Assembly (NCBI GenBank): GCA_964349095.1
Contig: CAYGFD010000001.1
Span: 13,867-56,580 of the forward strand
Direction: 5' to 3'
Length of the DNA: 42,714 nt
Source of the DNA: an uncultured Gammaproteobacteria bacterium
Lineage (GTDB): Bacteria > Patescibacteriota > Patescibacteriia > Veblenbacterales > UBA10138
The position numbers and the translations under genes were made by a program. This document shows, in pieces, positions 22,491 through 42,714 of the stretch (position 1 is its first letter; each line of letters opens with the position of its first letter). The notes below the pieces were generated by a model. The model did no database searches and was not told the DNA's origin. It was given only the letters and a program-made list of their open reading frames with translations.

Positions 22491-22491
22491 A

Positions 22492-22570: not shown

Positions 22571-22711
22571 ATGGATGAAAAAAATACCCCTTTCGGTACC
22601 TTTATTTTTTATGCTGTTCTGGCAGTAGCATGCGCCGTTGGTTTCTTTGTAATCAAAAAACAGATGGATGAGCTTGATTGCCCCTACCAAGAGGAAGAAA
22701 TCGGTATTTAG
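22571..22711 (+). CDS. Candidate 46-aa single-TM mini-protein
   Basis: GGAGGAG SD at 22562-22568. MDEKNTPFGTFIFYAVLAVACAVGFFVIKKQMDELDCPYQEEEIGI. ATG 22571 is preferred over the track start at 22529. Confidence 0.5.
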   Translation: MDEKNTPFGTFIFYAVLAVACAVGFFVIKKQMDELDCPYQEEEIGI

Positions 22712-22718
22712 TCTCGGA

Positions 22719-22750
22719 AAACCCATTGAAAATTTTAATGGGTTTTTTTA
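22719..22750. terminator. Intrinsic terminator of cassette B, overlapping the cysS stop codon
   Basis: AACCCATT / AATGGGTT stem, 9-nt loop, T7 tract. Confidence 0.8.
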
Positions 22751-24184: not shown

Positions 24185-24212
24185 AACATCATTTTACTCC
24201 GCTTTTAATGGT

Positions 24213-24241
24213 TTGACAAAAACGATTTAATAACTTAACAT
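24213..24241 (+). promoter_or_regulatory. Putative promoter, micro-cassette C (TTGACA-17-TAACAT)
   Basis: TTGACA 24213-24218, 17-nt spacer, TAACAT 24236-24241. 79 nt from the -35 start to the ATG. Confidence 0.45.
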
Positions 24242-24291
24242 AAGCAATTAAACAGACAAAAAATCGCTCATTCATTCAATCATGGTGCGGA

Positions 24292-24579
24292 ATGGAAACA
24301 AATAATTTCTATGCGGAAATTGCTCGACTGCAGTCAACTGGACTGCCAATTGAATTTATTATCTTCTTTCTCGCCTCGTTCCTTCTAACAATGCTGACAA
24401 TCTTGTTTTGTTCACGATTGTTAGCAGTCTCTTCATTGTTCAGTGCGGTATTATCGCTTTGGTTCATTGTTCCTACATTGAGCGTAGTGGGGATTTTATT
24501 GAGCTCGGTCACTATATTAGTATCGCTCACATATTTTTTTGCTGTGATGCAAAAACCCCAATACCGATATCGGTCGTGA
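24292..24579 (+). CDS. Hypothetical small membrane protein (95 aa, about 3 TM)
   Basis: Strongly hydrophobic, with promoter upstream and terminator downstream on the same strand. No clear SD, and an antisense ORF of equal length exists. Confidence 0.45.
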   Translation: METNNFYAEIARLQSTGLPIEFIIFFLASFLLTMLTILFCSRLLAVSSLFSAVLSLWFIVPTLSVVGILLSSVTILVSLTYFFAVMQKPQYRYRS

Positions 24580-24585
24580 TTTACG

Positions 24586-24612
24586 AAACCCCAAAACAAC
24601 TGGGGTTTTTTT
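24586..24612. terminator. Intrinsic terminator between the convergent cassette C and antiporter genes
   Basis: ACCCCA / TGGGGT stem, 7-nt loop, T7 tract on the plus strand. Confidence 0.75.
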
Positions 24613-24615
24613 ATT

Positions 24616-26372: not shown

Positions 26373-26837
26373 ATGCAAGATATTAGGAAAGAGTATAAAG
26401 GACGAGAGGTCACGATTCCAACAGGAGTAGAACAGTCAGAATTGAAGGAAGTTTTTCCAGATGCTCCTAAAGAAGCCGTGGATCAGAGAGTTGTTCCAGC
26501 GCCTCTACCAGTCGAGCCAGTTGCGAATATTAGTTCAAGTATATCCACCCCAGTTATAAGTGTTGATCCAATTCAAAAGAACGTGGAGAATATTTTACAG
26601 GAAGACATGTTGGATCTGTATAAAGAATTAAGTCCGATCGAACAACAACAGTTTAAAATAAAAGGTGAGGAAACCGCCAAAGCGATCAGCCAAATAGTTA
26701 GGGCAATGCAGGTAAAGATTCAAGACATCATAAATTTAATTAAAGATTGGTTAAAGGTGATACCGGGCGTTAAGAATTATTTTGTTGAGCAAGAGGCAAA
26801 AATAAAAGCGGAAAAAATATTAAAATTGCAAAAATAA
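26373..26837 (+). CDS. Hypothetical protein (154 aa, Pro-rich N-half, helical Lys/Glu-rich C-half)
   Basis: ORF with a consensus promoter. The stop overlaps the start of the next gene (ATAATG). I recognise no family. Confidence 0.6.
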   Translation: MQDIRKEYKGREVTIPTGVEQSELKEVFPDAPKEAVDQRVVPAPLPVEPVANISSSISTPVISVDPIQKNVENILQEDMLDLYKELSPIEQQQFKIKGEETAKAISQIVRAMQVKIQDIINLIKDWLKVIPGVKNYFVEQEAKIKAEKILKLQK

Positions 26838-29383
26838 TGAATGGGTTAGACTCGTCAACTCAATCTCTGAATAATTCTTTTATCGGATCGCCGTTAATGT
26901 GGTTGATAATTTTTTTGGTATTTGTTGTTGGAGTCATTGTTTTTCTTTTTATAATGAGAAGGTTAACTCGCAGGGTGTCACAAGTTGACCTAAGTTTGCA
27001 GATGCAGGCGCTGTTAATTACGGTACCTAAAGAGTCTTTTGGTTCAGACCAAGATAAATCATCGGGTCATCAGTTTATTGTTGAACAAATCGGTGTAGCA
27101 GAAGTGTTATGGTCAGCATTAGGGGGATTAAAGCCTGAGGGTGGGTTGAAGAATAAATTTAAAGTTAGGCAGGATCAAATATCTCTGGAAATAGTCCTTA
27201 AGGACGAAGTAATTTCTTTTTACGTAGTTGTACCGCCGGTTTTACGAAGTTTTATTGAACAACAAATTTTGTCTCATTATCCGCACGCAAATATTGAAGC
27301 GGTTGATGATTACAATATATTTCTAGCACGCGGTGCGGTCGCGGGCACATATTTAACATTTTCAAAGATGTCCGCTTTTCCTACCAGAACATTTAAGCAG
27401 TTGGAAGCCGATCCTTTAAATTCTATAACTAATTCCTTAAGTAAGATTCCAGCTGGCTCTGGCGCAGCAATTCAATTGGTTGTCCGATCTGCTAAATCAA
27501 GTTGGCGTAACGAGGGCGTCAGGATTGCTTCGGCGATGCAGCAGGGCAAAGCTTTAAATGAGGTTTCCCATGGCCAGGGTTTTGGAAAAATTGCCTCCGG
27601 CGCTTGGAAGTTAGGCAAAGAGATGTTTGGTTCTAGCACTAAAAAATCCGAAATTGAGAAAGCTAATAATAAATACCAACTGTCTCCTCTGGAGCAAGAG
27701 ATGATAAAGGGGATTGAAAATAAGGCTTCTAACGCTGGTTTGGACGTAAATATTCGCATCGTCACCGCCGCGCCCGATCAGGTATCTGCTGATCGGTACC
27801 TTTATGATATTGCCAATGCTTTTAATCAATTCAATGTTTATGAATACGGTAATAGTTATGTGGCAACCAAGCCGCATTCGCTGGATGATTTTATGACGGG
27901 TTTTATTCATCGCGAATTAAATGAAAGTAAAAAAATAGTTTTAAATACTGAAGAACTCGCGACGATCTATCATTTTCCGTTGCCATCTACTGAAACACCA
28001 AATATTAAGTGGCTAGGCGCTCGTCGAGCGGCCGCACCTGTAAATATGCCCGCTGCTGGTTTGCAATTAGGTATTAATTATTACCGAGGGCAGGAAGTTC
28101 CGGTCAAAATTAAAGATGATGATCGACGAAGACATGTCTATGTAATTGGTAAGTCTGGTACAGGTAAATCAGTTTTGTTGCAGAACATGATTGTGCAGGA
28201 TATTAAAGCTGGCCACGGTGTTGGTGTTATTGATCCGCACGGGGATTTAGTGGAAGGTATTTTGGAACAAGTACCGCCCGAGCGAGTTGACGATATAATT
28301 GTTTTTAACCCATCAGATGTCGAGCGACCAATGGGACTTAATATGCTTGAGTTTTCCGCTCCGGAGCAGATGGATTTTGCGGTTCAGGAAATGATTTCTA
28401 TTTTTTACAAATTATTTCCACCGGAAATGATTGGCCCAATGTTTGAACATAACATGAGAAATGTCATGTTAACCTTAATGGCTGATAAGGAATTCCCCGG
28501 CACGATTGCTGACATCCCACGCATGTTCACTGATAAAGAGTTTCAAAAGTATAAAGTGTCAAAATTGGGTGACCCAGTAGTTCGTGCTTTTTGGGAAAAG
28601 GAAATGGCGCAGACAACGGATTTTCACAAATCTGAAATGTTGGGTTATCTGATTTCCAAAGTTGGCAGGTTTGTTGAAAATGAAATGATGCGTAATATTA
28701 TCGGTCAACCAAAGTCAGGGTTTAATTTCCGAGAAGTTATGGATAATCAAAAGGTCGTTCTGGTTAATTTATCTAAAGGGACGACTGGTGAAGTAAATTC
28801 CTCGTTATTGGGATTGATAATTGTTTCAAAAATGCAGATGGCGGCAATGTCTCGTGCTAACTTGCCGGAATCAGAACGTAAGGATTTTTATTTATACATT
28901 GATGAGTTTCAAAACTTTATAACTGATTCCATAGCGACTATTTTATCTGAAGCAAGAAAGTACAGATTGGATTTAATAATTGCCAATCAATATCTTAAGC
29001 AATTAACTCAGGGTAATGACACTAAAATTAGGGATGCCGTTCTAGGAACGGTGGGCACATTAGTTAGTTTTAAAATTGGCGTTGAGGATGCTGAAGTATT
29101 GGCCAAGGAGTTTGAGCCTGTATTTAATGCCCACGATATTGTTAATATTGAGCAATATAACGCTTATGTTAAGCTTTTGGTTGATAACGCGCCGGCCAGA
29201 CCTTTTAATATGAGAACCTTACCACCAGGACGTGGAGACAAAAATATTGCTAAAAAAATTAAGGAATTATCAAGGCTTAAATATGGGAAAGCACGTGCCG
29301 AGGTACAGTCAGAAATAATGGAGAGAACAAGACTTGGTTCAGCAATCACTAAACAGGCGGTACCAACTGAGCGAACGCTATGA
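26837..29383 (+). CDS. Fused membrane-anchored N-module + VirD4/TraD-like (FtsK-HerA superfamily) P-loop NTPase, 848 aa
   Basis: TM helix LMWLIIFLVFVVGVIVFLFIM. The N-module is homologous to ORF 37331-38737. Walker A GKSGTGKS (nt 28149-28172), DPHGDL, Walker B FYLYIDEFQNF, LIIANQY sensor-like motif. The C-half aligns with ORF 38740-40515. Confidence 0.8.
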   Translation: MNGLDSSTQSLNNSFIGSPLMWLIIFLVFVVGVIVFLFIMRRLTRRVSQVDLSLQMQALLITVPKESFGSDQDKSSGHQFIVEQIGVAEVLWSALGGLKPEGGLKNKFKVRQDQISLEIVLKDEVISFYVVVPPVLRSFIEQQILSHYPHANIEAVDDYNIFLARGAVAGTYLTFSKMSAFPTRTFKQLEADPLNSITNSLSKIPAGSGAAIQLVVRSAKSSWRNEGVRIASAMQQGKALNEVSHGQGFGKIASGAWKLGKEMFGSSTKKSEIEKANNKYQLSPLEQEMIKGIENKASNAGLDVNIRIVTAAPDQVSADRYLYDIANAFNQFNVYEYGNSYVATKPHSLDDFMTGFIHRELNESKKIVLNTEELATIYHFPLPSTETPNIKWLGARRAAAPVNMPAAGLQLGINYYRGQEVPVKIKDDDRRRHVYVIGKSGTGKSVLLQNMIVQDIKAGHGVGVIDPHGDLVEGILEQVPPERVDDIIVFNPSDVERPMGLNMLEFSAPEQMDFAVQEMISIFYKLFPPEMIGPMFEHNMRNVMLTLMADKEFPGTIADIPRMFTDKEFQKYKVSKLGDPVVRAFWEKEMAQTTDFHKSEMLGYLISKVGRFVENEMMRNIIGQPKSGFNFREVMDNQKVVLVNLSKGTTGEVNSSLLGLIIVSKMQMAAMSRANLPESERKDFYLYIDEFQNFITDSIATILSEARKYRLDLIIANQYLKQLTQGNDTKIRDAVLGTVGTLVSFKIGVEDAEVLAKEFEPVFNAHDIVNIEQYNAYVKLLVDNAPARPFNMRTLPPGRGDKNIAKKIKELSRLKYGKARAEVQSEIMERTRLGSAITKQAVPTERTL

Positions 29384-29907
29384 TAATATTGCAACTTGTA
29401 TTTCTAATACTACTGCTGGTGGTATTAGGGAGTGTTGCTTTTGCAACTTTATCAGCGGCCCCTTGGGTTCCGCTACCAAAAAAAGACGTCCGGCGTATGG
29501 TGGCGCACGCCAACATTAAGCCAGGTGAAACGGTTTATGATTTAGGCTGTGGCGATGGCAGAGTACTAATTGAGGTTGCAAGAGCAATGAATGCAAAGGC
29601 TATTGGTTTTGAAATATCAATACTCATGTATGTAGTTGCCTTACTTAGGGTTTATTTATCTGGTCAGTCAAAGAACATTAAGATACACCTTAAAAATTTT
29701 TACAAAACAGACTTTAAAGAGGCCGATGTTATACTTTGTTTTTTAACACCCAATGCTATGCGTAATTTAAAGACCAAAGTCGAAAGTGAATTAAAATTCG
29801 GCGCCAGGTTTCTGAGTTACGTTTTTCCAATTAATGGCATAAAGCCTAAAGAGATATTTAAGGAACGCGAAACTGACGCAACTATATATTTATATTCTAC
29901 TGAATAA
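29380..29907 (+). CDS. Membrane-anchored class I SAM-dependent methyltransferase
   Basis: N-terminal TM (LQLVFLILLLVVLGSVAFATL), then APWVPLPKKDV...VYDLGCGDGRVLIEVA (motif I). ATGA overlap with the preceding gene. Confidence 0.8.
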   Translation: MIILQLVFLILLLVVLGSVAFATLSAAPWVPLPKKDVRRMVAHANIKPGETVYDLGCGDGRVLIEVARAMNAKAIGFEISILMYVVALLRVYLSGQSKNIKIHLKNFYKTDFKEADVILCFLTPNAMRNLKTKVESELKFGARFLSYVFPINGIKPKEIFKERETDATIYLYSTE

Positions 29908-35306: not shown

Positions 35307-35549
35307 TTAGGGTGAGAGTAGAAGGCGGTGGGGTTGGGGCACTCGATGGGGTGTGCCGCAGAATTTAATTTTGAGGTGGTCGTGGCGAGCAAGTTCAAGA
35401 GCGAGTTGGTTTTCTGACCATGGCGTCAGGTTTCCACGGCCGATGTTGTTGATCATTCTGGGGTGAGTGTAAAGTTCGTCAATTTCTTGTGGGGTGGCGC
35501 AACCCTCGTGGATTTTTGATAATGAAATTAAAGTAATATTGCGCTCCAT
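35307..35549 (-). CDS. Hypothetical protein (80 aa), GC-rich ORF
   Basis: GGAGGAG SD just upstream of the ATG (35549). Own promoter-like box and terminator. I recognise no family. Confidence 0.5.
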   Translation of the reverse strand: MERNITLISLSKIHEGCATPQEIDELYTHPRMINNIGRGNLTPWSENQLALELARHDHLKIKFCGTPHRVPQPHRLLLSP

Positions 35550-35586
35550 CTCTCCTCCGTAAATTTATAAAGAACGACGCATAGTT

Positions 35587-35615
35587 AGGTTAGACCCTGA
35601 TTTATAATTGGTCAA
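35587..35615 (-). promoter_or_regulatory. Putative promoter of the GC-rich cassette on the minus strand (TTGACC-17-TAACCT)
   Basis: TTGACC at 35615-35610, 17-nt spacer, TAACCT at 35592-35587. The -35 box directly follows the upstream terminator T-run. Confidence 0.4.
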
Positions 35616-35622
35616 TAAAAAA

Positions 35623-35644
35623 AACCTTACTTTGAGGTAAGGTT
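35623..35644 (-). terminator. Intrinsic terminator of the minus-strand membrane gene 36061-35654
   Basis: AACCTTAC / GTAAGGTT stem, 6-nt loop, T8 on the minus strand. Confidence 0.7.
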
Positions 35645-35653
35645 TTGCGTGAC

Positions 35654-36061
35654 TCACAGAATCACATAAGCTTGGGTAATTAGGAGAATGATAACTGAGC
35701 AAAAAAATGACCAGTATATTGAATGAATCTTGTAATCAACCAGTCGATAGTCCCGGACTAATCCCGGTGACTCGGGGTCTGTGGTTAGGACGTAGGTTGC
35801 TAGTCCTATGAATAAAAGAATTCCGACAATCACGGGCACGATGGGGGCCAGCAAGATTAAAACAAGATAGTCAGGATTTACAGCCTCGGCCAGGGAAGTG
35901 AAGTTCAGTGTGGTTAAAATAAATAGAAGAACTAAAGCGAAGCTAATGAAAACAATTGCCGTAATGGCAAGGTTGCGACCCATGTCGTAGGTTTTAACGA
36001 TTCTTATAAATACCAACGACATAAAAGCCACAAGGGCTGAGATAATCCATAAGGCATTCAT
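35654..36061 (-). CDS. Hypothetical integral membrane protein (about 4 TM)
   Basis: Hydrophobic profile, GAGAGGA SD upstream of ATG 36061. Confidence 0.55.
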   Translation of the reverse strand: MNALWIISALVAFMSLVFIRIVKTYDMGRNLAITAIVFISFALVLLFILTTLNFTSLAEAVNPDYLVLILLAPIVPVIVGILLFIGLATYVLTTDPESPGLVRDYRLVDYKIHSIYWSFFCSVIILLITQAYVIL

Positions 36062-36160
36062 TTCATCCTCTCTAATTGGTTATGAACAGTGTTTTTTGCC
36101 ACCTTATCACCTCATTATTTAATAGGCAATAGTTACTACTTCGTATATTTTACAATATTC

Positions 36161-36189
36161 TTGACATAAATGTCATAATATGATATAAT
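36161..36189 (+). promoter_or_regulatory. Consensus sigma-70 promoter (TTGACA-17-TATAAT), -10 box 10 nt from the ATG (leaderless candidate)
   Basis: TTGACA 36161-36166, 17-nt spacer, TATAAT 36184-36189, ATG 36200. No SD. Confidence 0.7.
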
Positions 36190-36199
36190 TAAGTGGTAT

Positions 36200-37321
36200 A
36201 TGAGTGCAGATCAAGGTTCAATTCTTGATAAAATCATTTCAACACAACAGTTTTCCAGAAAGGAACATTTTCGTCCCCAGGAGGTTCTGGCAGAAATAAT
36301 GCGAAGTTTGAATGAAAGAGAGGCGCAAGTTGTTATGCGCCGTTTTGGTTTACCCGATAATGAGCACGAAACTCTGGAAAGTGTTGGTAAAAGCTTCAAT
36401 ATTACTCGCGAAAGGGTAAGGCAGATAGAAAAGTTGGTCATAAATAAGATAAAAGCGAACGATAAGATGCAGGATCTGCTAAGTCCGGTACGAGCGGTTA
36501 TAGTGGAAACTTTAGAAACAGAAGGCGGGGCCATGACCGAGGATCATTTACTTAAGTCACTAAATGACACATCTTCCCAAGATGTTCCTAAAAATACCCT
36601 GTCGTTTTATTTGAACTTTTTACTTGATGATGTCGTTTCTAAAATTAGTGATGAAAATTTTTTGGATGCCTGGATGCTCAAGACCGCGTCGCTTGATGCT
36701 CTGAAAAACCTCAGCAATATTGCAAAAACAATATTGGAAAAAGCTAATCGACCACTATCCGACGAAATTTTATGGCATGAAATGTCCAAAGTAGGGAATT
36801 TATTATCTCCTCTAGGTGACGCGCTTACCGATGTTCGGGTGACGGTTTCGCTTTTGGAAATTTCTAATGATATTAAGCGTAATCCGTATGGTGAATGGGG
36901 GTTAACTGTTTGGGACACTATCACTCCTAAGCGAATGAGTGATAAAATATACTTAGTACTAAAGAAAAAGGGGAGCCCCTTACATTTTAGGGAAATTACC
37001 AATCTAATTAACGATCAAAAGTTTGATCATAAACAGGCGCACGCACCTACGGTGCACAACGAGTTGATTTTGGATAGTCGTTTTGTGTTGGTGGGTCGTG
37101 GAATCTACGCTTTATCAGAGTGGGGATACAAGCCCGGCGCAGTGGCGGATGTGATCGTTGAGATTATAAAGCAAAAAGGTCCGCTTACTAGAGACGAGGT
37201 TGTGACTGAAGTATTATCGCGTAGAGTTGTACAAGCTGGTACAATTCATTTAGCTCTAACTAACAAAAAAATATTTATAAGAAACGAGCAGGGTAAATAT
37301 ACTCTAGCTAATCAAAATTAA
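36200..37321 (+). CDS. Sigma-70 region-4-like HTH fused to HARE-HTH-type winged-helix repeat(s). No sigma region 2.
   Basis: LNEREAQVVMRRFGLPDNEHETLESVGKSFNITRERVRQIEKLVINKIK is sigma region 4.2-like. KIYLVLKKKGSPLHFREITNLIN...TVHNELILDSRFVLVGRGIYALSEWGY is HARE-HTH-like (RpoE-delta N-domain). Weaker similar repeats end in GEWGLTVW and GKYTLAN. Confidence 0.8.
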   Translation: MSADQGSILDKIISTQQFSRKEHFRPQEVLAEIMRSLNEREAQVVMRRFGLPDNEHETLESVGKSFNITRERVRQIEKLVINKIKANDKMQDLLSPVRAVIVETLETEGGAMTEDHLLKSLNDTSSQDVPKNTLSFYLNFLLDDVVSKISDENFLDAWMLKTASLDALKNLSNIAKTILEKANRPLSDEILWHEMSKVGNLLSPLGDALTDVRVTVSLLEISNDIKRNPYGEWGLTVWDTITPKRMSDKIYLVLKKKGSPLHFREITNLINDQKFDHKQAHAPTVHNELILDSRFVLVGRGIYALSEWGYKPGAVADVIVEIIKQKGPLTRDEVVTEVLSRRVVQAGTIHLALTNKKIFIRNEQGKYTLANQN

Positions 37322-37330
37322 AACTAAACT

Positions 37331-38737
37331 ATGGATTGGGAGGCAATCCGGATCTCAATTGAACAATTTACTAATTTAGGCCCTTTAGAACAGCAGTGGT
37401 GGATATTCACACACGGCGGTTGGGCGCTTATTTTATTTATTGGAGTTCCGTTGTGGCTAAAGGAAAGGTTAAGGAGAAAACGCATCGAGCATATCGAGCA
37501 TACTAAGTATGTTTTGTTAGCCTTGGACGTACCAAAAGGTACCGAACAATCACCGAAGGCTGTGGAAAGTATTTTTACTGCTTTGGCTGGTGCGCATAGT
37601 CATGGTAATTTAATTGAGCATTATTGGGATGGCCATGTTCAGGAGCCATTTAGTTTTGAAATAGCTTCTCTAGGCGGTTATATTCAATTTTTTGTTAGAA
37701 CCCCAGAACAATTTCGTGATCTGGTGGAGGCGGCAATTTATGCTCAGTATCCGGACGCTGAAATTATTGAGAGTGAGGACTACGTCGATCGTATTCCGTC
37801 TTTTTATGATACTGAAGAATTTGACTTGTGGGGAACGGAATTAACATTTACTAATAAAAATTATTTTCCCATTAGAACTTATCCGGAATTTGAGCACACC
37901 GCTAGTGAAGATTTTAAGGATCCAATGGCTGGTATTTTGGAAATATTATCGCGTGTTCATCCAGATGAGGATGTTTGGTTGCAATTTTTAGTGACGCCGA
38001 TAGAAGATGAGTGGAAAGAAGAGGGTTTAGCGGTAGTAGAAAAAATGGCTGGCGTCACACATGCAGCTCATAAACCAGGGGTAGCGGCGAGAATGGGCAG
38101 TGGTTTAGTGGAAACACTGAGGGTAATGGGACACTCATTAATACCTTATAATAAGGATGAGGAGACTCATACCACAGAGAAATCTACGACCAATGATAAA
38201 AGAGTAACGCCTGGGCAGAAAGTAATAATGGAAGCGATTGAGAAGAAAATTGCTAAAATTGGATTTAGAGTAAAACCTAGAATGATTTATTGGGGAAGGC
38301 GCGAAACTTTCACTAAGGGCAGAGGAGTAGCCGCAGTTATGGGAGCTATTCAACAATTTAATACTTTAAATTTAAATGGTTTTAAACCATCAAAATTGGT
38401 TACTACTAAAGCCAACTATTTTTTGGTTAAAAGTAGGATAACAAAACGTCAGAGAAAAGTTTTGATTGCTTATAAACGTCGTGACCCGTTTCGAGGTGCT
38501 GGGCCAGGGATTATTTTAAATACTGAAGAATTAGCAACGGTATTCCATTTCCCAGTCGCAACAGTTAAAGCACCGTTGGTGAGAAAAACCGAGTTGAAAA
38601 AGTCGGAGCCACCTTTTGCACTCCCTGTGTTTAGAAGTCAGGGTCGGGTGCAGGTAGACTCTCAAGTTAATAGAGGTGATGAACCTTCTCGAAAGACGGG
38701 TGGCGGATCACCAACTAATTTACCGATTATTGAATAA
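37331..38737 (+). CDS. Membrane-anchored N-module protein (468 aa), homologous to the N-half of ORF 26837-29383
   Basis: TM WWIFTHGGWALILFIGVPLWL. Shared blocks are FSFEIASLGGYIQFFVRTPEQFRDLVEAAIYAQYPDAEIIESEDY vs ISLEIVLKDEVISFYVVVPPVLRSFIEQQILSHYPHANIEAVDDY, and IILNTEELATVFHFPVATVKAP vs IVLNTEELATIYHFPLPSTETP. Confidence 0.75.
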   Translation: MDWEAIRISIEQFTNLGPLEQQWWIFTHGGWALILFIGVPLWLKERLRRKRIEHIEHTKYVLLALDVPKGTEQSPKAVESIFTALAGAHSHGNLIEHYWDGHVQEPFSFEIASLGGYIQFFVRTPEQFRDLVEAAIYAQYPDAEIIESEDYVDRIPSFYDTEEFDLWGTELTFTNKNYFPIRTYPEFEHTASEDFKDPMAGILEILSRVHPDEDVWLQFLVTPIEDEWKEEGLAVVEKMAGVTHAAHKPGVAARMGSGLVETLRVMGHSLIPYNKDEETHTTEKSTTNDKRVTPGQKVIMEAIEKKIAKIGFRVKPRMIYWGRRETFTKGRGVAAVMGAIQQFNTLNLNGFKPSKLVTTKANYFLVKSRITKRQRKVLIAYKRRDPFRGAGPGIILNTEELATVFHFPVATVKAPLVRKTELKKSEPPFALPVFRSQGRVQVDSQVNRGDEPSRKTGGGSPTNLPIIE

Positions 38738-38739
38738 TT

Positions 38740-40515
38740 ATGGCAGTAGTAGACAAACAAAACGATATCGTACCGTTTGCGCAGACTAGTTTTCGCAACC
38801 ATAATGTTAAGTTTGGAATTAAACTCGATGATCGTCGTCGACATGTTTATATAGTTGGTAAGACTGGTATGGGAAAGACCGTAGTTTTGGAAAACATGAT
38901 TACGGCCGATATTCGAAATGGACACGGGTTAGCGGTAGTAGATCCACACGGCGATTTAGTGCAAAAAATTCTTGAAACTATTCCAGCCCATCGCATTAAC
39001 GATGTTATTTATTTCAATCCGTCAGATATTGATTACCCTGTTGCTTTCAACGTTTTAGAGCAAGTGGATCCTCGTTACCGTCACTTGGTAGCGTCTGGTC
39101 TGGTTGGTGTCTTTAAGAAAATTTGGGCAGATTCCTGGGGGCCGCGACTGGAGTACATATTGAGAAATGCCATTTTATCGTTATTGGAATATCCCAGCTC
39201 AACTTTGCTAGGTATCACCAGAATTTTAGTAGATAAAAAATATAGAAAGAAAGTTTTGGAACAGGTTACCGATCCGGTTGTTCGGTCGTTTTGGCTAGAC
39301 GAGTATGAGAACTACAATGAGAAATTTAGAGTTGAGGCAGTATCGCCAATCCAGAATAAGATAGGACAATTTTTATCGTCATCAATTATTAGAAATATTG
39401 TCGGTCAGCCCAAATCAACGCTCGATGTTAGAGATATAATGGATAATGAAAAAATACTTCTACTGGACTTGGCTAAGGGAAAGATCGGTGAAGATAACGC
39501 TTCGCTACTGGGAGCTATGATGATAACCAAGATGCAACTGGCCGCGATGAGTAGAATTGATATACCAGAAATGGAAAGAAAGGATTTCTTCCTATACGTT
39601 GATGAGTTCCAAAACTTTATAACAGATTCTTTTGCCAATATTTTATCGGAGGCGCGAAAATATCGCCTTAACTTAATTATGGCTCATCAATACATCGAGC
39701 AACTGGGCGATGTAGTAAAGGCCGCGGTATTTGGTAACGTCGGGACAATTATTTGTTTTAGAATCGGGGCTGAAGACGCGGAGTTTTTGGAAAAAGAATT
39801 TGAGCCCATATTCATGCAGAATGATTTAGTTAACTTGCCGAAGTTTCATGTTTATTTGAAATTAATGATTGATGGAATTACTTCTGACCCATTTAGCGCT
39901 AACACTCTTCCGCCTGTCGCGCAGTTGACTGGCAATAAAGCAAAAGTAATAAAAGTTTCTCGGGAACGCTATAGTAATAAGAGGGAAGAGGTTGAGGAAA
40001 AAATATTGCGATGGTCTGGTGTGGAGGATGTCTTTAAAGCCACGGCCCATCAGGAGAGTAAAAGCATTCCAGATGAGGATAAGATGTTTAAGTCCGCTCC
40101 AGCTAGAAAAAAAACAGAAAATAAAGAGTCGGAAGATTTGTTTGAGAGTCAGTGTTGGGTTTGTGGAAAAAAAGTTATGTTACCTTTTGAGCCTGATGGT
40201 GTGCGTCCGGTATATTGCAAGGAAGATATAAAGAAGGTGCGGCAGGGTCTGATTCCTAAACCAAAACCGCCATTGCAAGTAAAATCGCATCAAGTCGAGA
40301 AGCAGATTGTGGAGGATCAGGTAAAGCCGGTTAGCATCCCGCACGATGTAATAGTAAGGGATACAGGACCGTCGGTTTCATTGCAGGAGTTATTAAAAAA
40401 AGCCCAACCACGCCATGAGACTAAGAATATTTCTCAGTCGCCTCAGCCGATTTTAGCTGAGTCGTCTGACACTAGTTTAAGTAGCTTAAAGCCCGGGCAG
40501 GTAGTTCGTTTTTAA
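38740..40515 (+). CDS. VirD4/TraD-like (FtsK-HerA superfamily) P-loop NTPase (591 aa) with a Lys/Pro-rich, Cys-motif C-terminal tail
   Basis: DDRRRHVYIVGKTGMGKT (Walker A, nt 38858-38881), DPHGDL, FFLYVDEFQNF (Walker B), LIMAHQY. Long collinear similarity to the C-half of ORF 26837-29383. Tail CWVCGKKVMLPFEPDGVRPVYC. Confidence 0.85.
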   Translation: MAVVDKQNDIVPFAQTSFRNHNVKFGIKLDDRRRHVYIVGKTGMGKTVVLENMITADIRNGHGLAVVDPHGDLVQKILETIPAHRINDVIYFNPSDIDYPVAFNVLEQVDPRYRHLVASGLVGVFKKIWADSWGPRLEYILRNAILSLLEYPSSTLLGITRILVDKKYRKKVLEQVTDPVVRSFWLDEYENYNEKFRVEAVSPIQNKIGQFLSSSIIRNIVGQPKSTLDVRDIMDNEKILLLDLAKGKIGEDNASLLGAMMITKMQLAAMSRIDIPEMERKDFFLYVDEFQNFITDSFANILSEARKYRLNLIMAHQYIEQLGDVVKAAVFGNVGTIICFRIGAEDAEFLEKEFEPIFMQNDLVNLPKFHVYLKLMIDGITSDPFSANTLPPVAQLTGNKAKVIKVSRERYSNKREEVEEKILRWSGVEDVFKATAHQESKSIPDEDKMFKSAPARKKTENKESEDLFESQCWVCGKKVMLPFEPDGVRPVYCKEDIKKVRQGLIPKPKPPLQVKSHQVEKQIVEDQVKPVSIPHDVIVRDTGPSVSLQELLKKAQPRHETKNISQSPQPILAESSDTSLSSLKPGQVVRF

Positions 40516-40516
40516 T

Positions 40517-41443
40517 ATGAATAAAATTATCAAAAATATTTCAAGTATAAAAGTTCAGGGCGCAACCAAGGTGGCGTTCACATCTTTATTACTGGTCAAA
40601 AATTCTTTAAGAAAATTATCGTGGCCGCCTCAAAAAAAATCTTTTGATCTGGTTGCTGACCAGGCAGGCCTGATTGGTAGATTGCGATCTACTGAACCAC
40701 TGACGAGAAATTTAATCCGCTGGTTATTGCTTGAGGCCTTTACCATCTACAAGAAAAACAATAATCGAGAAAATTTTAATAAATATTTGAACGCGCTATA
40801 TAACAGGGCGATTGGACATTATGCCGATGTCGAAGATAGTATTGTTCGAACGGCTTTAAAAAAGATAAATGATGGTGATAATGTTTTTACGCATTGCCAC
40901 TCCAGTTTAGTTGAGAAGATATTAATCGCGGCTAAGCAATCTGGAAAAAAAATTACCGTGTATCATACAGAAACCAGACCTTTATTTCAAGGGAGGATTA
41001 CCGAGAAAAATTTGCGTAAGGCTGGTGTTAAGTCATTCATGGTTGCAGATTCAGCTGCCGCTTATTTAGTATCCAAGCACTCGGGTGACGATATTAGTAT
41101 TGATTTGGTTGTCTTGGGCGCAGACGCCCTCTTGGCTGATGGCAGTGTTATTAACAAGATTGGTAGTTTTGGTATCGCACTGGCTGCGTATGACTCTAAA
41201 ATACCAGTTTATGTTGCAAGTAGTTTGTTAAAGTTTGATATAGATTCCACAACTAAAATTGAAATGAGGAGTTCGGGGGAGATTTGGCCAAACCATCCTA
41301 GTAAAACACGTATTTTAAATTATGCCTTTGACCGCATCCCTGCTAAAATGATTACAGAAATTATTTGTGAAAACGGGGCTGTAAAGCCTAAATCGATTTC
41401 TAAATTAGCTAAAAAACAATATGCGAAATTATTTAATTATTAA
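40517..41443 (+). CDS. eIF-2B alpha/beta/delta-family isomerase, probable ribose-1,5-bisphosphate isomerase
   Basis: eIF-2B-family fold motifs (VFTHCHSS with Cys, VVLGADALLADGSVINKIGS with Asp). Size is about 308 aa and it lies next to RuBisCO. The start is 1 nt after the upstream stop. Confidence 0.8.
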   Translation: MNKIIKNISSIKVQGATKVAFTSLLLVKNSLRKLSWPPQKKSFDLVADQAGLIGRLRSTEPLTRNLIRWLLLEAFTIYKKNNNRENFNKYLNALYNRAIGHYADVEDSIVRTALKKINDGDNVFTHCHSSLVEKILIAAKQSGKKITVYHTETRPLFQGRITEKNLRKAGVKSFMVADSAAAYLVSKHSGDDISIDLVVLGADALLADGSVINKIGSFGIALAAYDSKIPVYVASSLLKFDIDSTTKIEMRSSGEIWPNHPSKTRILNYAFDRIPAKMITEIICENGAVKPKSISKLAKKQYAKLFNY

Positions 41444-41452
41444 TCCATCGCT

Positions 41453-41860
41453 ATGTCACTAAAGATGAAAACTGCTGAAAAATTGAATATCGTTAGAGGT
41501 CAGCCACGACTTAGAAAGATGTGGTATACATACATAACGCTTGTCAGTATAAACATTATTTTGGTTTTAATTAATTTATCAAACCATTACTTCAGTAGCC
41601 TTAAAGATGCTGACAATTCAGAAAAATTGATATTTGCAATCTTGGCTTTGCTTGTGCTGACTTGGTTAATTATTGTCCTTATAGGTGCGTACAGATTGAG
41701 CCGTTGGGTAGGTATTTTTTACATACTTGGATTATTGGAGGCTATAGGGAATTTTAATATTTTAGCAATAATATTTACAGGTTTAGTAATTTATTTTTAT
41801 TATTATATTTCTAATAAAGTTGAGTTACTTGGAAATACACCAGTTACAAGTAAGTCGTAA
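41453..41860 (+). CDS. Hypothetical membrane protein (135 aa, 3-4 TM)
   Basis: Hydrophobic profile. Sits between the isomerase and RuBisCO genes. Confidence 0.5.
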   Translation: MSLKMKTAEKLNIVRGQPRLRKMWYTYITLVSINIILVLINLSNHYFSSLKDADNSEKLIFAILALLVLTWLIIVLIGAYRLSRWVGIFYILGLLEAIGNFNILAIIFTGLVIYFYYYISNKVELLGNTPVTSKS

Positions 41861-41905
41861 TTTATCCTAAAGTCTTGACTCTGTTTAAAAATTATTTAAT
41901 TAAAT

Positions 41906-42714
41906 ATGGCCGTACAACTAAATTATATTGCCCCAGATGGGTGGCAACCAAAAAACCCAGACGAAGATTACGTTATCGCCCAGTTTAAAATACAGCTCGC
42001 AGCTGGTATTCCCGATAACGTATTTTTAGATGCCGCTGCATCTGTGGCCGCTGAATCCTCAACCGGGACCTGGACCAAGGTAGAATCAAGGCCGGATTCT
42101 GGGATGAAAACCGCAGAAGAATATAAAGCGGTTGTATTTGATGTTGATAGAAAAAACCACATGTTCAAAGTGGCCTACAGAACCGATTTATTTGAACCAG
42201 GAAATATATCTGGATTTTTGGCAGGGCCGGCGGGAAATATTGCCGGAATGAAAATGGTGCAGGGCTTGAGATTATTTGATGTTCGTTTTCCACGCTCACT
42301 GGTAGAGTCATTTCCTGGGCCACGTTTTGGTATAGCCGGACTTAGAGATATGCTGGGCAGCAAGAATCGCTGGCCAATTATGGGTACAGTTCCTAAACCT
42401 AAGGTGGGTAGGTCGGCAACCGAGCAAGCGATGTTAGCAAGACGTATGTGGCAGGCCGGTGACGGTACTTATGAATTTATTAAGGATGATGAAAATTTAA
42501 CCAGCTTACCTTTTAATAAATTTGAAGATCGTACGCGACAAATATTAGATGTGCAGCGTGAGATTGAGCAGGCGAGTGGAAATAAAAAATTATATTTATG
42601 TAATTTAACGCACTCCAACATCGATATTATGATGGATCGGGCAAACTTGATTAAAGAAAATGGCGGTCGGGTAATGATGATCGATGTTGTTACAACTGGC
42701 ATGGCGGCCGTTCA
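41906..42714 (+). CDS. rbcL: RuBisCO large subunit, form II/III or III-like (5' partial, runs off the window, so absent from the ORF track)
   Basis: My translation from ATG 41906 is MAVQLNYIAPDG...AAESSTGTWT...GNISGF...GTVPKPKVGRS...FIKDDENLTS...LYLCNLT. It has the RuBisCO N-domain motif, the KPK catalytic lysines and the KDDE carbamylation/metal motif. The frame is open to 42714. Confidence 0.9.
   Translation, partial: MAVQLNYIAPDGWQPKNPDEDYVIAQFKIQLAAGIPDNVFLDAAASVAAESSTGTWTKVESRPDSGMKTAEEYKAVVFDVDRKNHMFKVAYRTDLFEPGNISGFLAGPAGNIAGMKMVQGLRLFDVRFPRSLVESFPGPRFGIAGLRDMLGSKNRWPIMGTVPKPKVGRSATEQAMLARRMWQAGDGTYEFIKDDENLTSLPFNKFEDRTRQILDVQREIEQASGNKKLYLCNLTHSNIDIMMDRANLIKENGGRVMMIDVVTTGMAAV

What the first reader, a model, noticed from the sequence alone, without database searches (positions are those of the whole stretch)
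37331..40515. Split two-gene module: membrane-anchored N-module plus VirD4/TraD-like P-loop ATPase, with no other conjugation or secretion genes nearby
Seen in the sequence: the two genes are separated by 2 nt (stop 38735-38737, ATG 38740).
- Gene 1 (468 aa) has one N-terminal TM segment and a soluble region of about 400 aa that I cannot assign to any family.
- Gene 2 (591 aa) has Walker A GKTGMGKT, DPHGDL, Walker B FFLYVDEFQNF and an AHQ sensor-like motif. That order is typical of FtsK/HerA-superfamily translocases and closest to type IV coupling proteins (VirD4/TraD/TrwB).
- Unlike canonical coupling proteins, the ATPase has no TM segment of its own. The membrane anchor is supplied by the separate upstream protein.
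- No relaxase, VirB4, VirB6, pilin, integrase or plasmid genes occur in the 42 kb.

Inference: this is a stand-alone membrane translocase of unknown substrate (DNA, RNA or protein), possibly lineage-specific. It is my best candidate in the window for an undescribed system.
Basis: partly seen in the sequence, partly recalled or inferred. Interest (0 to 1): 0.8.

Follow-up and report, generated by a model that had tools for sequence, protein, structure and literature searches.

The report
Split coupling-protein-like ATPase of Patescibacteria
The two genes are the split form of a widespread but uncharacterised membrane-anchored motor protein related to the "coupling" ATPases of bacterial conjugation, kept here on the chromosome of an ultrasmall (CPR/Patescibacteria) bacterium without the usual DNA-transfer partner genes.

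Summary
The two ORFs, their 2-nt spacing and the ATPase motifs are real. They are not an isolated oddity.

- **Gene 1** (468 aa) belongs to Pfam DUF8128 (PF26449). Its AF2 model resembles the N-terminal domain of VirB4/TrwK.
- **Gene 2** (591 aa) is a TrwB/VirD4-type motor with an all-alpha domain and a C-terminal zinc ribbon.
- **A fused copy was missed.** The same window holds a fused paralog (26837-29383, 848 aa) with the same TM, DUF8128 and ATPase layout, so the pair is a genuine gene-split form of one architecture.
- **The split pair is conserved.** Of 77 Patescibacteria species loci with enough flanking sequence to judge, 55 keep the ATPase immediately downstream and one is fused. A Sigma70_r4/HARE-HTH gene usually sits directly upstream.
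- **Relatives outside CPR are conjugation-linked.** In Bacillus plasmids, Bacillus phages (SPO1 gp27.4, phage G gp156) and haloarchaeal plasmids (also split), the family lies next to Replic_Relax relaxases and VirB4-like genes.
- **In Patescibacteria it is chromosomal and duplicated**, with no relaxase or VirB4 nearby. This matches the published "orphan T4CP" observation.

Best reading: a domesticated, split coupling-protein-like nucleic-acid translocase whose substrate is unknown. It is a new variant of a known kind and of moderate interest.

The parts
36161..36189 (+). Promoter-like site with a perfect consensus (TTGACA-17-TATAAT, with TG), ending 11 nt before the first gene of the cluster
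   Evidence: It is the only 12/12 match in 35500-42100. This is a consensus match only, not evidence of function.
36200..37321 (+). Conserved upstream companion gene: a 373-aa protein with Sigma70 region 4 (aa 34-85) and a HARE-HTH / RNAP-delta-like domain (aa 245-308). It has no sigma region 2. Its stop codon lies 9 nt before gene 1.
   Evidence: Pfam and NCBIfam. A homologue lies directly upstream of the DUF8128 gene in 47 of 80 species loci and in L001, L002 and L004.
37331..38737 (+). Gene 1: DUF8128 (PF26449) protein. It has one N-terminal membrane helix followed by a ~370-aa cytoplasmic domain with a VirB4-N-terminal-domain-like fold, then a disordered tail.
   Evidence: ORF. PF26449/DUF8128 labels. 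AF2 model pLDDT 81.4, pTM 0.76. The top 13 PDB fold hits are all TrwK/VirB4. It aligns end to end with the N-half of the fused paralog.
37403..37459 (+). Predicted membrane helix of gene 1 (aa 25-43, IFTHGGWALILFIGVPLWL), followed by KERLRRKR
   Evidence: Hydropathy and flanking charge. It lies within the long helix 18-57 of the AF2 model.
38525..38554 (+). Most conserved motif of the N-module, EELATVFHFP (aa 399-408). It is the last structured element before the split point.
   Evidence: Invariant columns E399 E400 L401 A402 H406 F407 P408 in alignment A1. The same motif, EELATIYHFP, occurs in the fused paralog.
38740..40515 (+). Gene 2: soluble TrwB/VirD4-type P-loop motor (aa ~18-425) with an all-alpha insertion, then a low-complexity tail bearing a zinc ribbon
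38857..38880 (+). Walker A, GKTGMGKT (aa 40-47)
   Evidence: G40, K41, G43, G45 and K46 are invariant in alignment A3.
39589..39606 (+). Walker B, FLYVDE (aa 284-289). It is followed by ARKYR (aa 305-309) and AHQ (aa 315-317).
   Evidence: These residues are invariant in A3 and align to the TrwB Walker B / RK / Q region.
40153..40227 (+). C-terminal treble-clef zinc ribbon of CxxC-x17-CxxC type. Here the ligands are C472, C475 and C493, and the fourth position is Asp496 instead of Cys.
   Evidence: Pfam zf_Tbcl_2 3e-08 and TIGR04272 2.9e-08. Residues. Of 52 full-length orthologues, 37 have the full motif, 3 have the Asp/Glu/His variant and 12 have none.
40517..41443 (+). Downstream gene, 1 nt after gene 2: an eIF-2B-family ribose-1,5-bisphosphate / MTR-1-P isomerase-like protein. 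It is probably co-transcribed. The linkage is conserved only in close relatives.
   Evidence: It is downstream in L006, L019 and L026 only.
26837..29383 (+). Fused paralog (848 aa) with a strong TM helix, then DUF8128, then a TrwB-like motor, and no zinc ribbon. It shows that genes 1 and 2 together form one architecture.
   Evidence: aa 27-405 align to gene 1 (24% identity, E 2e-24). aa 416-828 align to gene 2 (47% identity, E 3e-135). Pfam. More than 5,000 fused homologues in Patescibacteria. AF2 pLDDT 86.9. Fold hits to VirB4 over the full length and to TrwB.
26373..26837 (+). Small conserved companion of the fused paralog (154 aa). It matches no known family, its stop overlaps the ATG of the fused gene, and its C-terminal motif is DWLKVIPGV..FFVEQEAKIKAEKILKL.
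   Evidence: Homologues lie directly upstream of fused orthologues in L088, L089 and L090.
29380..29907 (+). 175-aa SAM-methyltransferase-like gene (resembling protein-lysine N-methyltransferases) that overlaps the end of the fused paralog
   Evidence: A homologue lies directly downstream in L088 and L090.

Best explanation
Genes 1 and 2 encode the two halves of a DUF8128-type type IV coupling protein (T4CP)-like ATPase.

Proposed mechanism:
- Gene 1 supplies a single N-out/C-in membrane helix and a cytoplasmic scaffold domain whose fold resembles the N-terminal domain of VirB4.
- Gene 2 supplies a TrwB/VirD4-type RecA-like motor with an all-alpha substrate-binding domain and a C-terminal zinc ribbon.
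- By analogy with TrwB and VirB4, the two proteins are inferred to assemble at the membrane into a ring. ATP hydrolysis would then engage and feed a nucleic-acid or nucleoprotein substrate to a membrane channel.

In Firmicutes plasmids, Bacillus phages and haloarchaeal plasmids the same family occupies the coupling-protein position, next to a Replic_Relax relaxase/nickase and VirB4-like genes.

In Patescibacteria the family has been domesticated. It is chromosomal, duplicated into a fused and a split paralog, embedded in housekeeping synteny, and uncoupled from relaxase and virB4. Each paralog has its own conserved small or HTH companion gene.

Shown here: domain identities, the fusion/fission relationship, conservation, and gene contexts. 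Inferred: physical association of the two products, hexamer formation, translocase activity, and the substrate.
For: Fusion/fission relationship:
- The in-window fused paralog aligns collinearly to gene 1 and then gene 2.
- L064 is a fused orthologue of the split lineage.
- PHROG 5156 (824 positions) covers gene 1 at positions 75-330 and gene 2 at 381-806.

T4CP identity of the motor:
- Pfam TrwB_AAD_bind, T4SS-DNA_transf and TraG-D_C all score above their cut-offs.
- A PDB profile search gives TrwB 6.6e-8 and DotL 8.5e-5, with no VirB4.
- hhalign to TrwB gives 96% probability over 271 columns spanning Walker A to the sensor. Against TrwK only the Walker A region aligns.
- Foldseek of the paralog model against TrwB gives TMt 0.60-0.65, rmsd ~5.4 A, E ~1e-11.
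- The catalytic motifs are invariant.

VirB4-like N-module:
- The top 13 PDB fold hits for the gene 1 model are all TrwK/VirB4 (best E 2.2e-4, probability 1.00).
- The full-length fused model's best hits are full-length TrwK (E 6e-13, ~910 aligned columns).
- hhalign of the family alignment against a 5-sequence VirB4 alignment gives 91% probability, E 9.5e-7. That alignment starts ~120 residues upstream of Walker A, inside the N-module.
- The VirB4-like phage G gp155 is also a fold hit of gene 1 (6.9e-6).

Conservation:
- Of 77 species loci with enough downstream sequence to judge, 55 have the ATPase immediately downstream, with a median gap of 3 nt.
- At least 593 species genomes hold a relative of gene 1.

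Conjugative context outside CPR:
- Bacillus licheniformis and Bacillus subtilis plasmids carry a fused gene followed by Replic_Relax, then conjugal-transfer and TcpD/TcpE genes, then a VirB4-like AAA_10 gene.
- Haloterrigena pHTS138 carries, in order, a pilin gene, a 1,099-aa 'conjugal transfer protein', a split DUF8128 gene and a TraM-recognition ATPase.
- SPO1 gp27.4 is followed by gp27.3, a Replic_Relax protein. Phage G has gp155, gp156 and gp146.

Literature:
- 5,713 VirD4-type T4CP homologues were found in 2,918 Patescibacteria genomes, and only 148 lie near virB4 (PMC12102498).
Against: - No T4SS channel, relaxase or oriT-like partner is present in the window or in the 6-kb flanks of 80 related loci. 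What the motor feeds is therefore unknown.
- The canonical T4CP feature of two TM helices in the same polypeptide is absent.
- All NCBIfam TraD/VirD4 equivalog scores are far below their cut-offs (51.5 against 366 bits).
- The VirB4-NTD similarity is fold-level only for most of the domain. TM-scores are low (0.3-0.35). Profile searches with gene 1 alone are negative.
- 21 of 77 loci have a DUF8128 gene with no adjacent ATPase, so the pairing is not obligatory in cis.
- According to PMC12102498 (citing the Tn-seq study of Wang et al. 2023), the T4CP homologue of S. epibionticum was not essential although the other T4SS genes were. Wang et al. themselves report no recognisable coupling protein within the T4SS cluster.
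- Physical interaction of the two products was not tested.
Confidence: 0.6

Rival explanations
1. The pair is a divergent split VirB4, the core T4SS energising ATPase, rather than a coupling protein. Gene 1 would be a VirB3-like anchor plus the VirB4 N-terminal domain, and gene 2 the VirB4 C-terminal motor.
For: - Best fold hits of gene 1 alone and of the full-length fused paralog are TrwK/VirB4.
- The collinear profile alignment to VirB4 reaches into the N-module.
- VirB3-VirB4 fusions are known from the general T4SS literature (my own knowledge).
Against: - The motor is closer to TrwB than to VirB4 in sequence and in structure (TMt 0.6 for TrwB against ~0.3 for TrwK).
- It carries the TrwB all-alpha-domain signature and the TraG-D_C signature.
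- It gives no AAA_10 or CagE_TrbE_VirB hit, and TIGR00929 scores 18.9 against a cut-off of 643 bits.
- In plasmids and in phage G a separate genuine VirB4-like (AAA_10) gene is encoded beside it, and the DUF8128 ATPase sits next to the relaxase, which is the T4CP position.
Confidence: 0.12
2. It is a housekeeping DNA pump exapted from a T4CP. It would act in chromosome segregation or division, or in nucleic-acid uptake, independently of any T4SS.
For: - It is chromosomal and sits in conserved housekeeping synteny (SecDF, sigma-like gene, DnaX and CysRS near the paralog) across many species.
- There are two paralogs per genome.
- No relaxase or virB4 is nearby.
- Zinc-ribbon and HTH companions suggest nucleic-acid binding.
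- PMC12102498 raises exaptation explicitly.
Against: - No FtsK gamma domain is present, and the FtsK_SpoIIIE hit is below its cut-off (14.9 against 24 bits).
- There is no direct evidence for any substrate.
- The S. epibionticum T4CP homologue is reported as non-essential.
- This reading overlaps the best explanation and differs only in its independence from a T4SS.
Confidence: 0.18
3. It is an anti-phage defence ATPase module of the HerA or MADS mad8 type.
For: The PADLOC mad8 profile hits gene 2 at 5e-20 and the fused paralog at 5e-17. Weaker HerA and DndH hits also appear.
Against: - No other mad, Dnd or Sir2/nuclease partner genes are in the window.
- Gene 1 has no PADLOC hit.
- The locus sits in stable housekeeping synteny across more than 50 species, not in a variable island.
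- Base composition is uniform (GC 0.39-0.41).
- The mad8 hit covers the generic TraD-like P-loop core.
Confidence: 0.03
4. It is a decaying remnant of an integrated conjugative element whose other genes lie outside the window.
For: Relatives on plasmids and phages are parts of conjugation-like modules. Only 42.7 kb of an 83.7-kb contig is visible.
Against: - Both ORFs are intact with invariant catalytic residues.
- The same gene order recurs in dozens of species at 36-64% identity.
- No integrase, relaxase or repeat-bounded island is present, and GC is uniform.
- Neighbours are core genes at 1-9 nt spacing.
Confidence: 0.04

Closest known systems
TrwB (R388) / VirD4 / TraD type IV coupling proteins
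   Same: - FtsK-HerA-superfamily RecA-like motor with Walker A, Walker B, an RK motif and a Q sensor.
- An all-alpha domain inserted between Walker A and Walker B.
- TraG-D_C signature.
- Membrane-tethered through an N-terminal region.
   Different: - The membrane anchor is one helix rather than two, and in the split form it is on a separate polypeptide.
- A ~370-aa cytoplasmic DUF8128 domain lies between the anchor and the motor.
- It has a C-terminal zinc ribbon.
- No relaxase or T4SS genes are nearby in Patescibacteria.
- Sequence similarity is far below the equivalog thresholds.
TrwK / VirB4 (R388 T4SS inner-membrane complex ATPase)
   Same: - Two-domain layout: a large N-terminal domain followed by the motor.
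- Best whole-chain fold match.
- A collinear profile alignment reaches from the last third of the N-module through the motor.
   Different: - The motor is closer to TrwB.
- It gives no AAA_10 or CagE signature.
- TM-scores to VirB4 are only ~0.3.
- The N-module alone shows no profile-level similarity to VirB4 or TrsD.
Fused DUF8128-ATPase ('DUF87 domain-containing protein') of Bacillus plasmids, next to a Replic_Relax relaxase (e.g. NZ_CP035190.1, NZ_OX419581.1)
   Same: Same family. The CPR-derived DUF8128 HMM hits the N-part at 7.6e-14, and the ATPase HMM hits the C-part at 3e-55.
   Different: - The two parts are fused.
- It is plasmid-borne.
- It is immediately followed by a relaxase and lies within a Tcp/VirB4-like conjugation cluster.
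- It has no zinc ribbon or sigma-like companion.
Haloarchaeal plasmid pair (Haloterrigena pHTS138: 399-aa hypothetical protein plus 1,034-aa TraM-recognition-domain protein)
   Same: Split arrangement with the DUF8128 gene directly upstream of the T4CP-like ATPase (HMM hits 8.8e-14 and 1.8e-50).
   Different: - It is on a plasmid beside pilin and 'conjugal transfer protein' genes.
- The ATPase is much longer.
- The host is archaeal.
Bacillus phage proteins SPO1 gp27.4 and phage G gp156 (PHROG 5156, function unknown)
   Same: Fused DUF8128 plus T4CP-like ATPase.
   Different: They are phage-encoded and adjacent to Replic_Relax 'replication initiation by nicking' genes. In phage G a VirB4-like gene, gp155, is also adjacent.
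'Orphan' VirD4-type T4CP homologues of Patescibacteria (Quinonero-Coronel et al. 2025, PMC12102498)
   Same: Very probably the same genes. There are about two per genome, they lie away from virB4, no relaxase is present, and exaptation is suggested.
   Different: As far as I could find, that paper does not describe the DUF8128 N-module, the split and fused paralogs, the VirB4-like fold or the conserved companion genes.

Membership tests
Type IV coupling protein (VirD4/TrwB/TraD/TraG) | P-loop motor of the FtsK-HerA superfamily with conserved Walker A, Walker B and sensor/arginine residues | tested here: met
   Motifs located and invariant in 30 homologues. They align to the TrwB motifs.
Type IV coupling protein (VirD4/TrwB/TraD/TraG) | All-alpha domain inserted in the nucleotide-binding domain (Pfam TrwB_AAD_bind), plus the T4SS-DNA_transf and TraG-D_C signatures | tested here: met
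   PF10412 scores 43.5 bits (cut-off 20.5), PF02534 28.3 (20.1) and PF12696 24.3 (22). In the model of the 47%-identical paralog a helical block at aa ~509-636 lies between Walker A and Walker B. Foldseek to TrwB gives TMt 0.60-0.65.
Type IV coupling protein (VirD4/TrwB/TraD/TraG) | N-terminal transmembrane domain (typically two helices) in the same polypeptide | tested here: not met
   Gene 2 has no TM segment. Gene 1 has a single, marginally hydrophobic helix. The fused paralog has one strong helix.
Type IV coupling protein (VirD4/TrwB/TraD/TraG) | Genetic linkage to a relaxase and/or a T4SS mating-pair-formation cluster | tested here: not met
   None in the window. None within 6 kb either side in 80 Patescibacteria loci, by single-sequence phmmer of limited sensitivity. 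The feature is met in non-CPR relatives.
Type IV coupling protein (VirD4/TrwB/TraD/TraG) | Scores above the curated equivalog/subfamily cut-offs of the NCBIfam TraD/VirD4 models | tested here: not met
   TIGR03743 scores 51.5 against 366 bits, NF045973 40.1 against 250, and TIGR03754 39.1 against 647.
Type IV coupling protein (VirD4/TrwB/TraD/TraG) | Hexameric ring with a central channel, DNA-stimulated ATPase activity and substrate recruitment to a T4SS | not testable with these tools
   Needs a multimer prediction or biochemistry.
VirB4 / TrwK / TraC | Large N-terminal domain preceding the motor, with VirB4-NTD fold | tested here: inconclusive
   Fold hits are specific to TrwK but TM-scores are low. 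hhalign of the whole-family alignment against VirB4 extends ~120 residues into the N-module at 91% probability. The N-module alone is negative against VirB4, TrsD and TrsE.
VirB4 / TrwK / TraC | VirB4 sequence signatures (AAA_10 / CagE_TrbE_VirB / TIGR00929) | tested here: not met
   No AAA_10 or CagE hit. TIGR00929 scores 18.9 against 643 bits. hhalign against TrwK aligns the Walker A region only.
Pfam DUF8128 (PF26449) | Match to the PF26449 model | tested here: met
   The exact gene 1 protein (P0001) and 118 of the 120 listed homologues carry the precomputed label PF26449.1. The model is named DUF8128. It is absent from the local Pfam copy, so I did not re-score it myself.
FtsK/SpoIIIE DNA translocase | FtsK_SpoIIIE motor signature, multi-span N-terminal domain and gamma (KOPS-binding) domain | tested here: not met
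   PF01580 scores 14.9 bits against a cut-off of 24, over the Walker A region only. No gamma-domain hit appears.
HerA helicase / defence HerA / MADS mad8 | HerA central domain plus HAS-barrel and a partner nuclease, or the MADS gene set | tested here: inconclusive
   DUF87 scores 31.3 bits (cut-off 23.2), but HerA_C is below its cut-off. PADLOC mad8 hits at 5e-20. No NurA, Sir2 or mad partner genes are in the window.

The most novel reading that the evidence does not exclude
The DUF8128-T4CP paralogs of Patescibacteria are domesticated conjugative coupling proteins that now act as stand-alone or T4SS-linked motors. They would move host-derived or self nucleic acid (DNA or RNA) across the epibiont membrane. 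The Sigma70_r4/HARE-HTH protein and the zinc ribbon would serve as nucleic-acid adaptors in place of a relaxosome. In evolutionary terms, the family would preserve a VirB4-like N-domain on a VirD4-like motor, making it a surviving intermediate between the two T4SS ATPases.
Probability: 0.15. Interest if true: 0.75.

Novelty: new variant of a known kind. Interest (0 to 1): 0.42.

Why it matters
Patescibacteria make up a large share of bacterial diversity. They live as epibionts and must obtain nucleotides and other building blocks from their hosts. Their T4SS is essential in the one genetically tractable species, yet it lacks a recognised coupling protein within its cluster.

This work gives three things:
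- It defines the abundant "orphan" T4CP homologues as a distinct DUF8128-bearing subfamily with split and fused paralogs and fixed companion genes.
- It ties that subfamily to relaxase-linked members on Bacillus and haloarchaeal plasmids and on phages.
- It thereby gives a concrete handle on what these motors do, and on how VirB4 and VirD4 are related.

It also assigns a first structural and contextual annotation to Pfam DUF8128 and PHROG 5156.

Tried and rejected
Negative results:
- Gene 1 gave nothing significant in the local Pfam, NCBIfam and PADLOC scans. The local Pfam copy lacks PF26449.
- A PDB sequence-profile search with the gene 1 alignment gave 0 hits.
- hhalign of the gene 1 alignment against single TrwK, TrsD and TrsE sequences, and against a 5-sequence VirB4 alignment, gave no signal. 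The VirB4-NTD link therefore rests on fold searches and on the whole-family alignment.
- Exact-sequence contig look-ups for gene 2 and for the fused paralog found nothing on record. The cluster look-up gave no names or accessions.
- A literature search for 'DUF8128' found 0 papers.
- The 154-aa companion of the fused paralog shows no similarity to the Sigma70_r4/HARE-HTH companion and matches no family.

Ideas considered and rejected:
- Defence system (mad8/HerA). No partner genes are present and the synteny is stable.
- ICE remnant. GC is uniform, the ORFs are intact and the core synteny is conserved.
- FtsK. It scores below its cut-off and there is no gamma domain.
- pLS20-type T4CP. The pLS20 T4CP has the canonical two TM helices (PMC8557374), so the Bacillus plasmids that carry the DUF8128 form belong to other families.

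Full report
**1. Observation**

The junction reads ...GAA TAA TT ATG..., so 2 nt lie between the stop and the start.

Gene 2 carries these motifs:
- Walker A GKTGMGKT (aa 40)
- DPHGD (aa 68)
- Walker B FLYVDE (aa 284)
- ARKYR (aa 305)
- AHQ (aa 315)

All of them are invariant in 30 homologues. Gene 2 has no membrane-quality hydrophobic segment.

Gene 1 has one N-terminal helix at aa 25-43. Its hydropathy is only marginal (KD19 1.67). The flanks are acidic on the N side and K/R-rich on the C side, which predicts an N-out/C-in topology.

Base composition across the locus (GC 0.39-0.41) matches the rest of the window.

The other genes in the window are housekeeping genes: MurA-like, CtpA, CTP synthase, L9, a MacB/HlyD ABC system, HrcA-GrpE-DnaK-DnaJ, Dus, CysRS, DnaX, tRNA-Gln, Nramp and others. 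No relaxase, VirB4, VirB6, pilin or integrase was found.

**2.

- **A fused copy in the same window.** ORF 26837-29383 (848 aa) is another TrwB-like ATPase.
  - Its aa 27-405 align to gene 1 aa 33-432 (24% identity, E 2e-24).
  - Its aa 416-828 align to gene 2 aa 18-423 (47% identity, E 3e-135).
  - Genes 1 and 2 are therefore the split version of one architecture: TM helix, then a ~370-aa N-module, then the motor.
- **Gene 1 has a family.** The exact protein and nearly all of its homologues carry the precomputed Pfam label PF26449 = DUF8128. That model is missing from the local Pfam copy. No paper in the library mentions DUF8128.
- **Gene 2 has a zinc-ribbon tail.** It ends in a CxxC-x17-CxxC treble-clef zinc ribbon (zf_Tbcl_2 3e-08, TIGR04272 2.9e-08). 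In this genome the fourth ligand is Asp496.

**3. Identity of the parts**

*Motor (gene 2)*
- Pfam TrwB_AAD_bind, T4SS-DNA_transf, TraG-D_C and DUF87 all score above their cut-offs.
- PDB sequence and profile searches find only TrwB (6.6e-8) and DotL (8.5e-5).
- hhalign against TrwB gives 96% probability over 271 columns, from Walker A through the all-alpha region to the sensor. Against TrwK only the Walker A region aligns. Against the Gram-positive proteins TrsE and TrsK the signal is weak.
- I modelled the fused paralog with AF2 (pLDDT 86.9, pTM 0.74). It superposes on TrwB with TMt 0.60-0.65 and rmsd ~5.4 A. The next matches are Cag-beta, DotL and HerA.

*N-module (gene 1)*
- The AF2 model has pLDDT 81.4 and pTM 0.76.
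- The top 13 PDB fold hits are all TrwK/VirB4 chains of the R388 T4SS (best E 2.2e-4, probability 1.00, ~450 aligned columns, but TMq only 0.35).
- The full-length fused model's best hits are full-length TrwK (E 6e-13, ~910 aligned columns).
- A profile-profile comparison of the family alignment with five VirB4-type ATPases gives 91% probability (E 9.5e-7). The alignment begins ~120 residues upstream of Walker A, inside the N-module.
- The N-module alone gives no profile-level signal against VirB4, TrsD or the PDB.

I therefore treat "VirB4-N-domain-like" as a moderately supported structural inference. It is not established homology.

**4. Distribution and context in Patescibacteria**

*Family size*
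- Gene 1 has more than 2,300 homologues, all labelled Patescibacteria/CPR or unnamed, and mostly 440-530 aa long.
- A profile search of 1.84 billion cluster representatives finds 3,790 hits.
- Gene 2 has more than 8,000 homologues. Their names include [quoted passage not shown], "DUF87" and "CxxC-x17-CxxC domain-containing protein".
- The fused form has more than 5,000 homologues, ~800-890 aa long.

*Gene order around the split pair*
I analysed 80 of these loci.
- Of 77 loci with enough downstream sequence to judge, 55 have the ATPase immediately downstream. Gaps range from -89 to +168 nt, with a median of 3 nt.
- One locus is fused (L064, 1,016 aa).
- 21 loci have no adjacent ATPase.
- A Sigma70_r4 + HARE-HTH gene lies directly upstream in 47 of the 80 loci. 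It is also present in three independently retrieved contigs, two of which have SecD/SecF further upstream.
- In the window this companion is 36200-37321, ending 9 nt before gene 1. A perfect sigma-70 consensus promoter-like site sits at 36161-36189.
- An eIF-2B-family isomerase-like gene follows 1 nt after gene 2. That linkage holds only in close relatives.

*Zinc ribbon*
- Of 52 full-length orthologues, 37 have the full motif, 3 have the Asp-type variant and 12 lack it.

*The fused paralog has its own companions*
- A 153-174-aa protein with no known family lies directly upstream. Its C-terminal motif is DWLKVIPGV..FFVEQEAKIKAEKILKL.
- A ~175-aa protein-lysine-methyltransferase-like gene is often found downstream.

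*Co-occurrence of the two forms*
- Both forms occur in the same genomes. Contig SCUL01000002.1 holds L067 (split) and L090 (fused).

*Absence of conjugation partners*
- No relaxase or VirB4-like gene was detected within 6 kb either side in the 80 loci, using single-sequence phmmer.

*Agreement with the literature*
- Quinonero-Coronel et al. 2025 report 5,713 VirD4-type T4CP homologues in 2,918 Patescibacteria genomes. Only 148 lie near virB4 and relaxases are rare. They suggest the proteins may have been exapted (PMC12102498).
- Wang et al. 2023 found no recognisable coupling protein or relaxase in the essential T4SS cluster of S. epibionticum (PMC10633639).

**5. Relatives outside Patescibacteria**

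- PHROG 5156 (function unknown) covers gene 1 and gene 2 collinearly.
- tblastn and fold searches find the fused architecture in several Bacillus phages: phage G gp156, Nachito, Goe26, 0305phi8-36 and SPO1 gp27.4. It also occurs in phage D6E.
- tblastn against plasmids finds 471 records, from Bacillus, Streptomyces, Staphylococcus, Clostridium, haloarchaea and Sulfolobus.
- HMMs built only from CPR sequences confirm the two-part match:

| Protein | N-module HMM | ATPase HMM |
|---|---|---|
| B. licheniformis plasmid, 885 aa | 7.6e-14 | 3e-55 |
| Phage G gp156 | 2e-20 | 3e-59 |
| SPO1 gp27.4 | 2e-5 | 2e-25 |
| Haloterrigena 399-aa hypothetical protein | 8.8e-14 | (separate gene) |
| Haloterrigena neighbouring 1,034-aa ATPase | (separate gene) | 1.8e-50 |
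| Canonical TrwB | no hit | 6e-10 |

- In these elements the gene occupies the coupling-protein position.
  - In the Bacillus plasmids it is followed directly by a Replic_Relax (PF13814) relaxase. Conjugal-transfer and TcpD/TcpE genes and a VirB4-like AAA_10 ATPase come after that.
  - SPO1 gp27.3 is a Replic_Relax protein.
  - Phage G encodes a VirB4-like gp155 next to gp156, with the Replic_Relax gp146 nearby.
  - The haloarchaeal plasmid places the split pair after a pilin gene and a "conjugal transfer protein" gene.

**6. Mechanism**

*Shown*
- Gene 1 plus gene 2 form the same domain series as a single-chain paralog.
- The motor is T4CP-like and its catalytic motifs are intact.
- The N-module carries the only membrane helix.
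- The pair is conserved and tightly spaced, which is compatible with co-transcription and translational coupling.
- Family members on mobile elements sit beside relaxases.

*Inferred*
- The gene 1 product tethers a ring of gene 2 motors to the cytoplasmic face of the membrane.
- The ring binds a nucleic-acid or nucleoprotein substrate. The all-alpha domain, the zinc ribbon and perhaps the HTH companion would contribute to binding.
- The ring delivers the substrate to a channel. That channel could be the Patescibacterial T4SS encoded elsewhere or an unknown partner.

I put ~0.6 on this overall reading. The family assignment is much more certain than the substrate or the channel.

*Rivals*
- Divergent split VirB4: 0.12.
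- T4SS-independent housekeeping DNA pump: 0.18.
- Defence ATPase: 0.03.
- ICE remnant: 0.04.

**7. Novelty and verdict**

The finding is real but is not an undescribed stand-alone system. It belongs to a large, already catalogued family (DUF8128 plus "T4SS DNA-binding domain protein"). The oddity of these proteins in Patescibacteria has been noted in print.

What I did not find described:
- the DUF8128 N-module as the defining feature of this T4CP subfamily
- its VirB4-like fold
- the recurrent gene fission, seen in Patescibacteria and in haloarchaea
- the paralog-specific companion genes
- the link to Replic_Relax modules in Bacillus plasmids and phages

I rate it a new variant of a known kind, with interest ~0.4.

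Noticed in passing
window 26373-29907: A second, fused DUF8128-T4CP paralog (26837-29383). A 154-aa family-less gene lies upstream and its stop overlaps the paralog's ATG. A protein-lysine-methyltransferase-like gene (29380-29907) overlaps the paralog's 3' end. The small upstream gene is conserved in three other genomes and the methyltransferase-like gene directly downstream in two of them.
   Followed up: partly
window 36161-37321: A 373-aa protein with Sigma70 region 4 plus a HARE-HTH (RNAP-delta-like) domain and no sigma region 2. It is preceded by a perfect TTGACA-17-TATAAT (TG) site ending 11 nt before its ATG, which would imply a near-leaderless transcript. The gene lies directly upstream of the DUF8128 gene in 47 of 80 species loci. 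Its role (RNAP accessory factor or adaptor for the ATPase) is unknown.
   Followed up: partly
window 40153-40227: The zinc ribbon of gene 2 has Asp (D496) in place of the fourth cysteine. Three of 52 orthologues show such a variant and 12 lack the ribbon altogether.
   Followed up: yes
window 40517-41443: An eIF-2B-family ribose-1,5-bisphosphate / MTR-1-P isomerase-like gene starts 1 nt after the ATPase stop. It scores below the equivalog cut-offs (158 against 314 bits). The linkage is kept only in close relatives (L006, L019, L026). A connection between nucleoside salvage and a nucleic-acid motor is tempting but untested.
   Followed up: no
L031, L039, L044, L046, L048, L050, L051, L054-L056, L059, L060, L062, L065, L071, L075, L076, L079, L080, L082, L083, L085: Orphan DUF8128 genes with no adjacent ATPase. 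In eight of them the gene is followed by a GT4 glycosyltransferase, a ~850-aa DUF4012 protein and a ~650-aa DUF11 protein. Several Magasanikbacteria-type loci instead have DUF6580 and a large secreted protein on the opposite strand.
   Followed up: partly
L091 (SPO1 88879-98102) and L092 (phage G 85874-98159): Bacillus phages carry a mini conjugation-like module. SPO1 has gp27.4 (DUF8128-T4CP) followed by gp27.3 (Replic_Relax nickase), with a 'partition protein' gene nearby. Phage G has gp155 (VirB4-like AAA_10) and gp156 (mis-annotated as MsbA-like), with gp146 (Replic_Relax) nearby. Their role in the phage life cycle is unknown.
   Followed up: partly
L010, L016, L019, L025, L028 and many other loci: Many MAG records titled 'uncultured Gammaproteobacteria bacterium' (binchicken and SRP co-assemblies) carry this Patescibacteria-type locus with the same synteny. 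The organism label in those titles looks like a placeholder or a misassignment.
   Followed up: no
window 8547-13311: A HlyD-like adaptor, a MacB-type ABC ATPase and two tandem MacB/FtsX permease paralogs in what is presumed to be a monoderm CPR genome.
   Followed up: no
window 20000-26300: GC skew falls to about zero or below only across the block of minus-strand genes (Dus, CysRS, Na+/H+ exchanger). This looks like a strand-of-transcription effect rather than a replication landmark.
   Followed up: no
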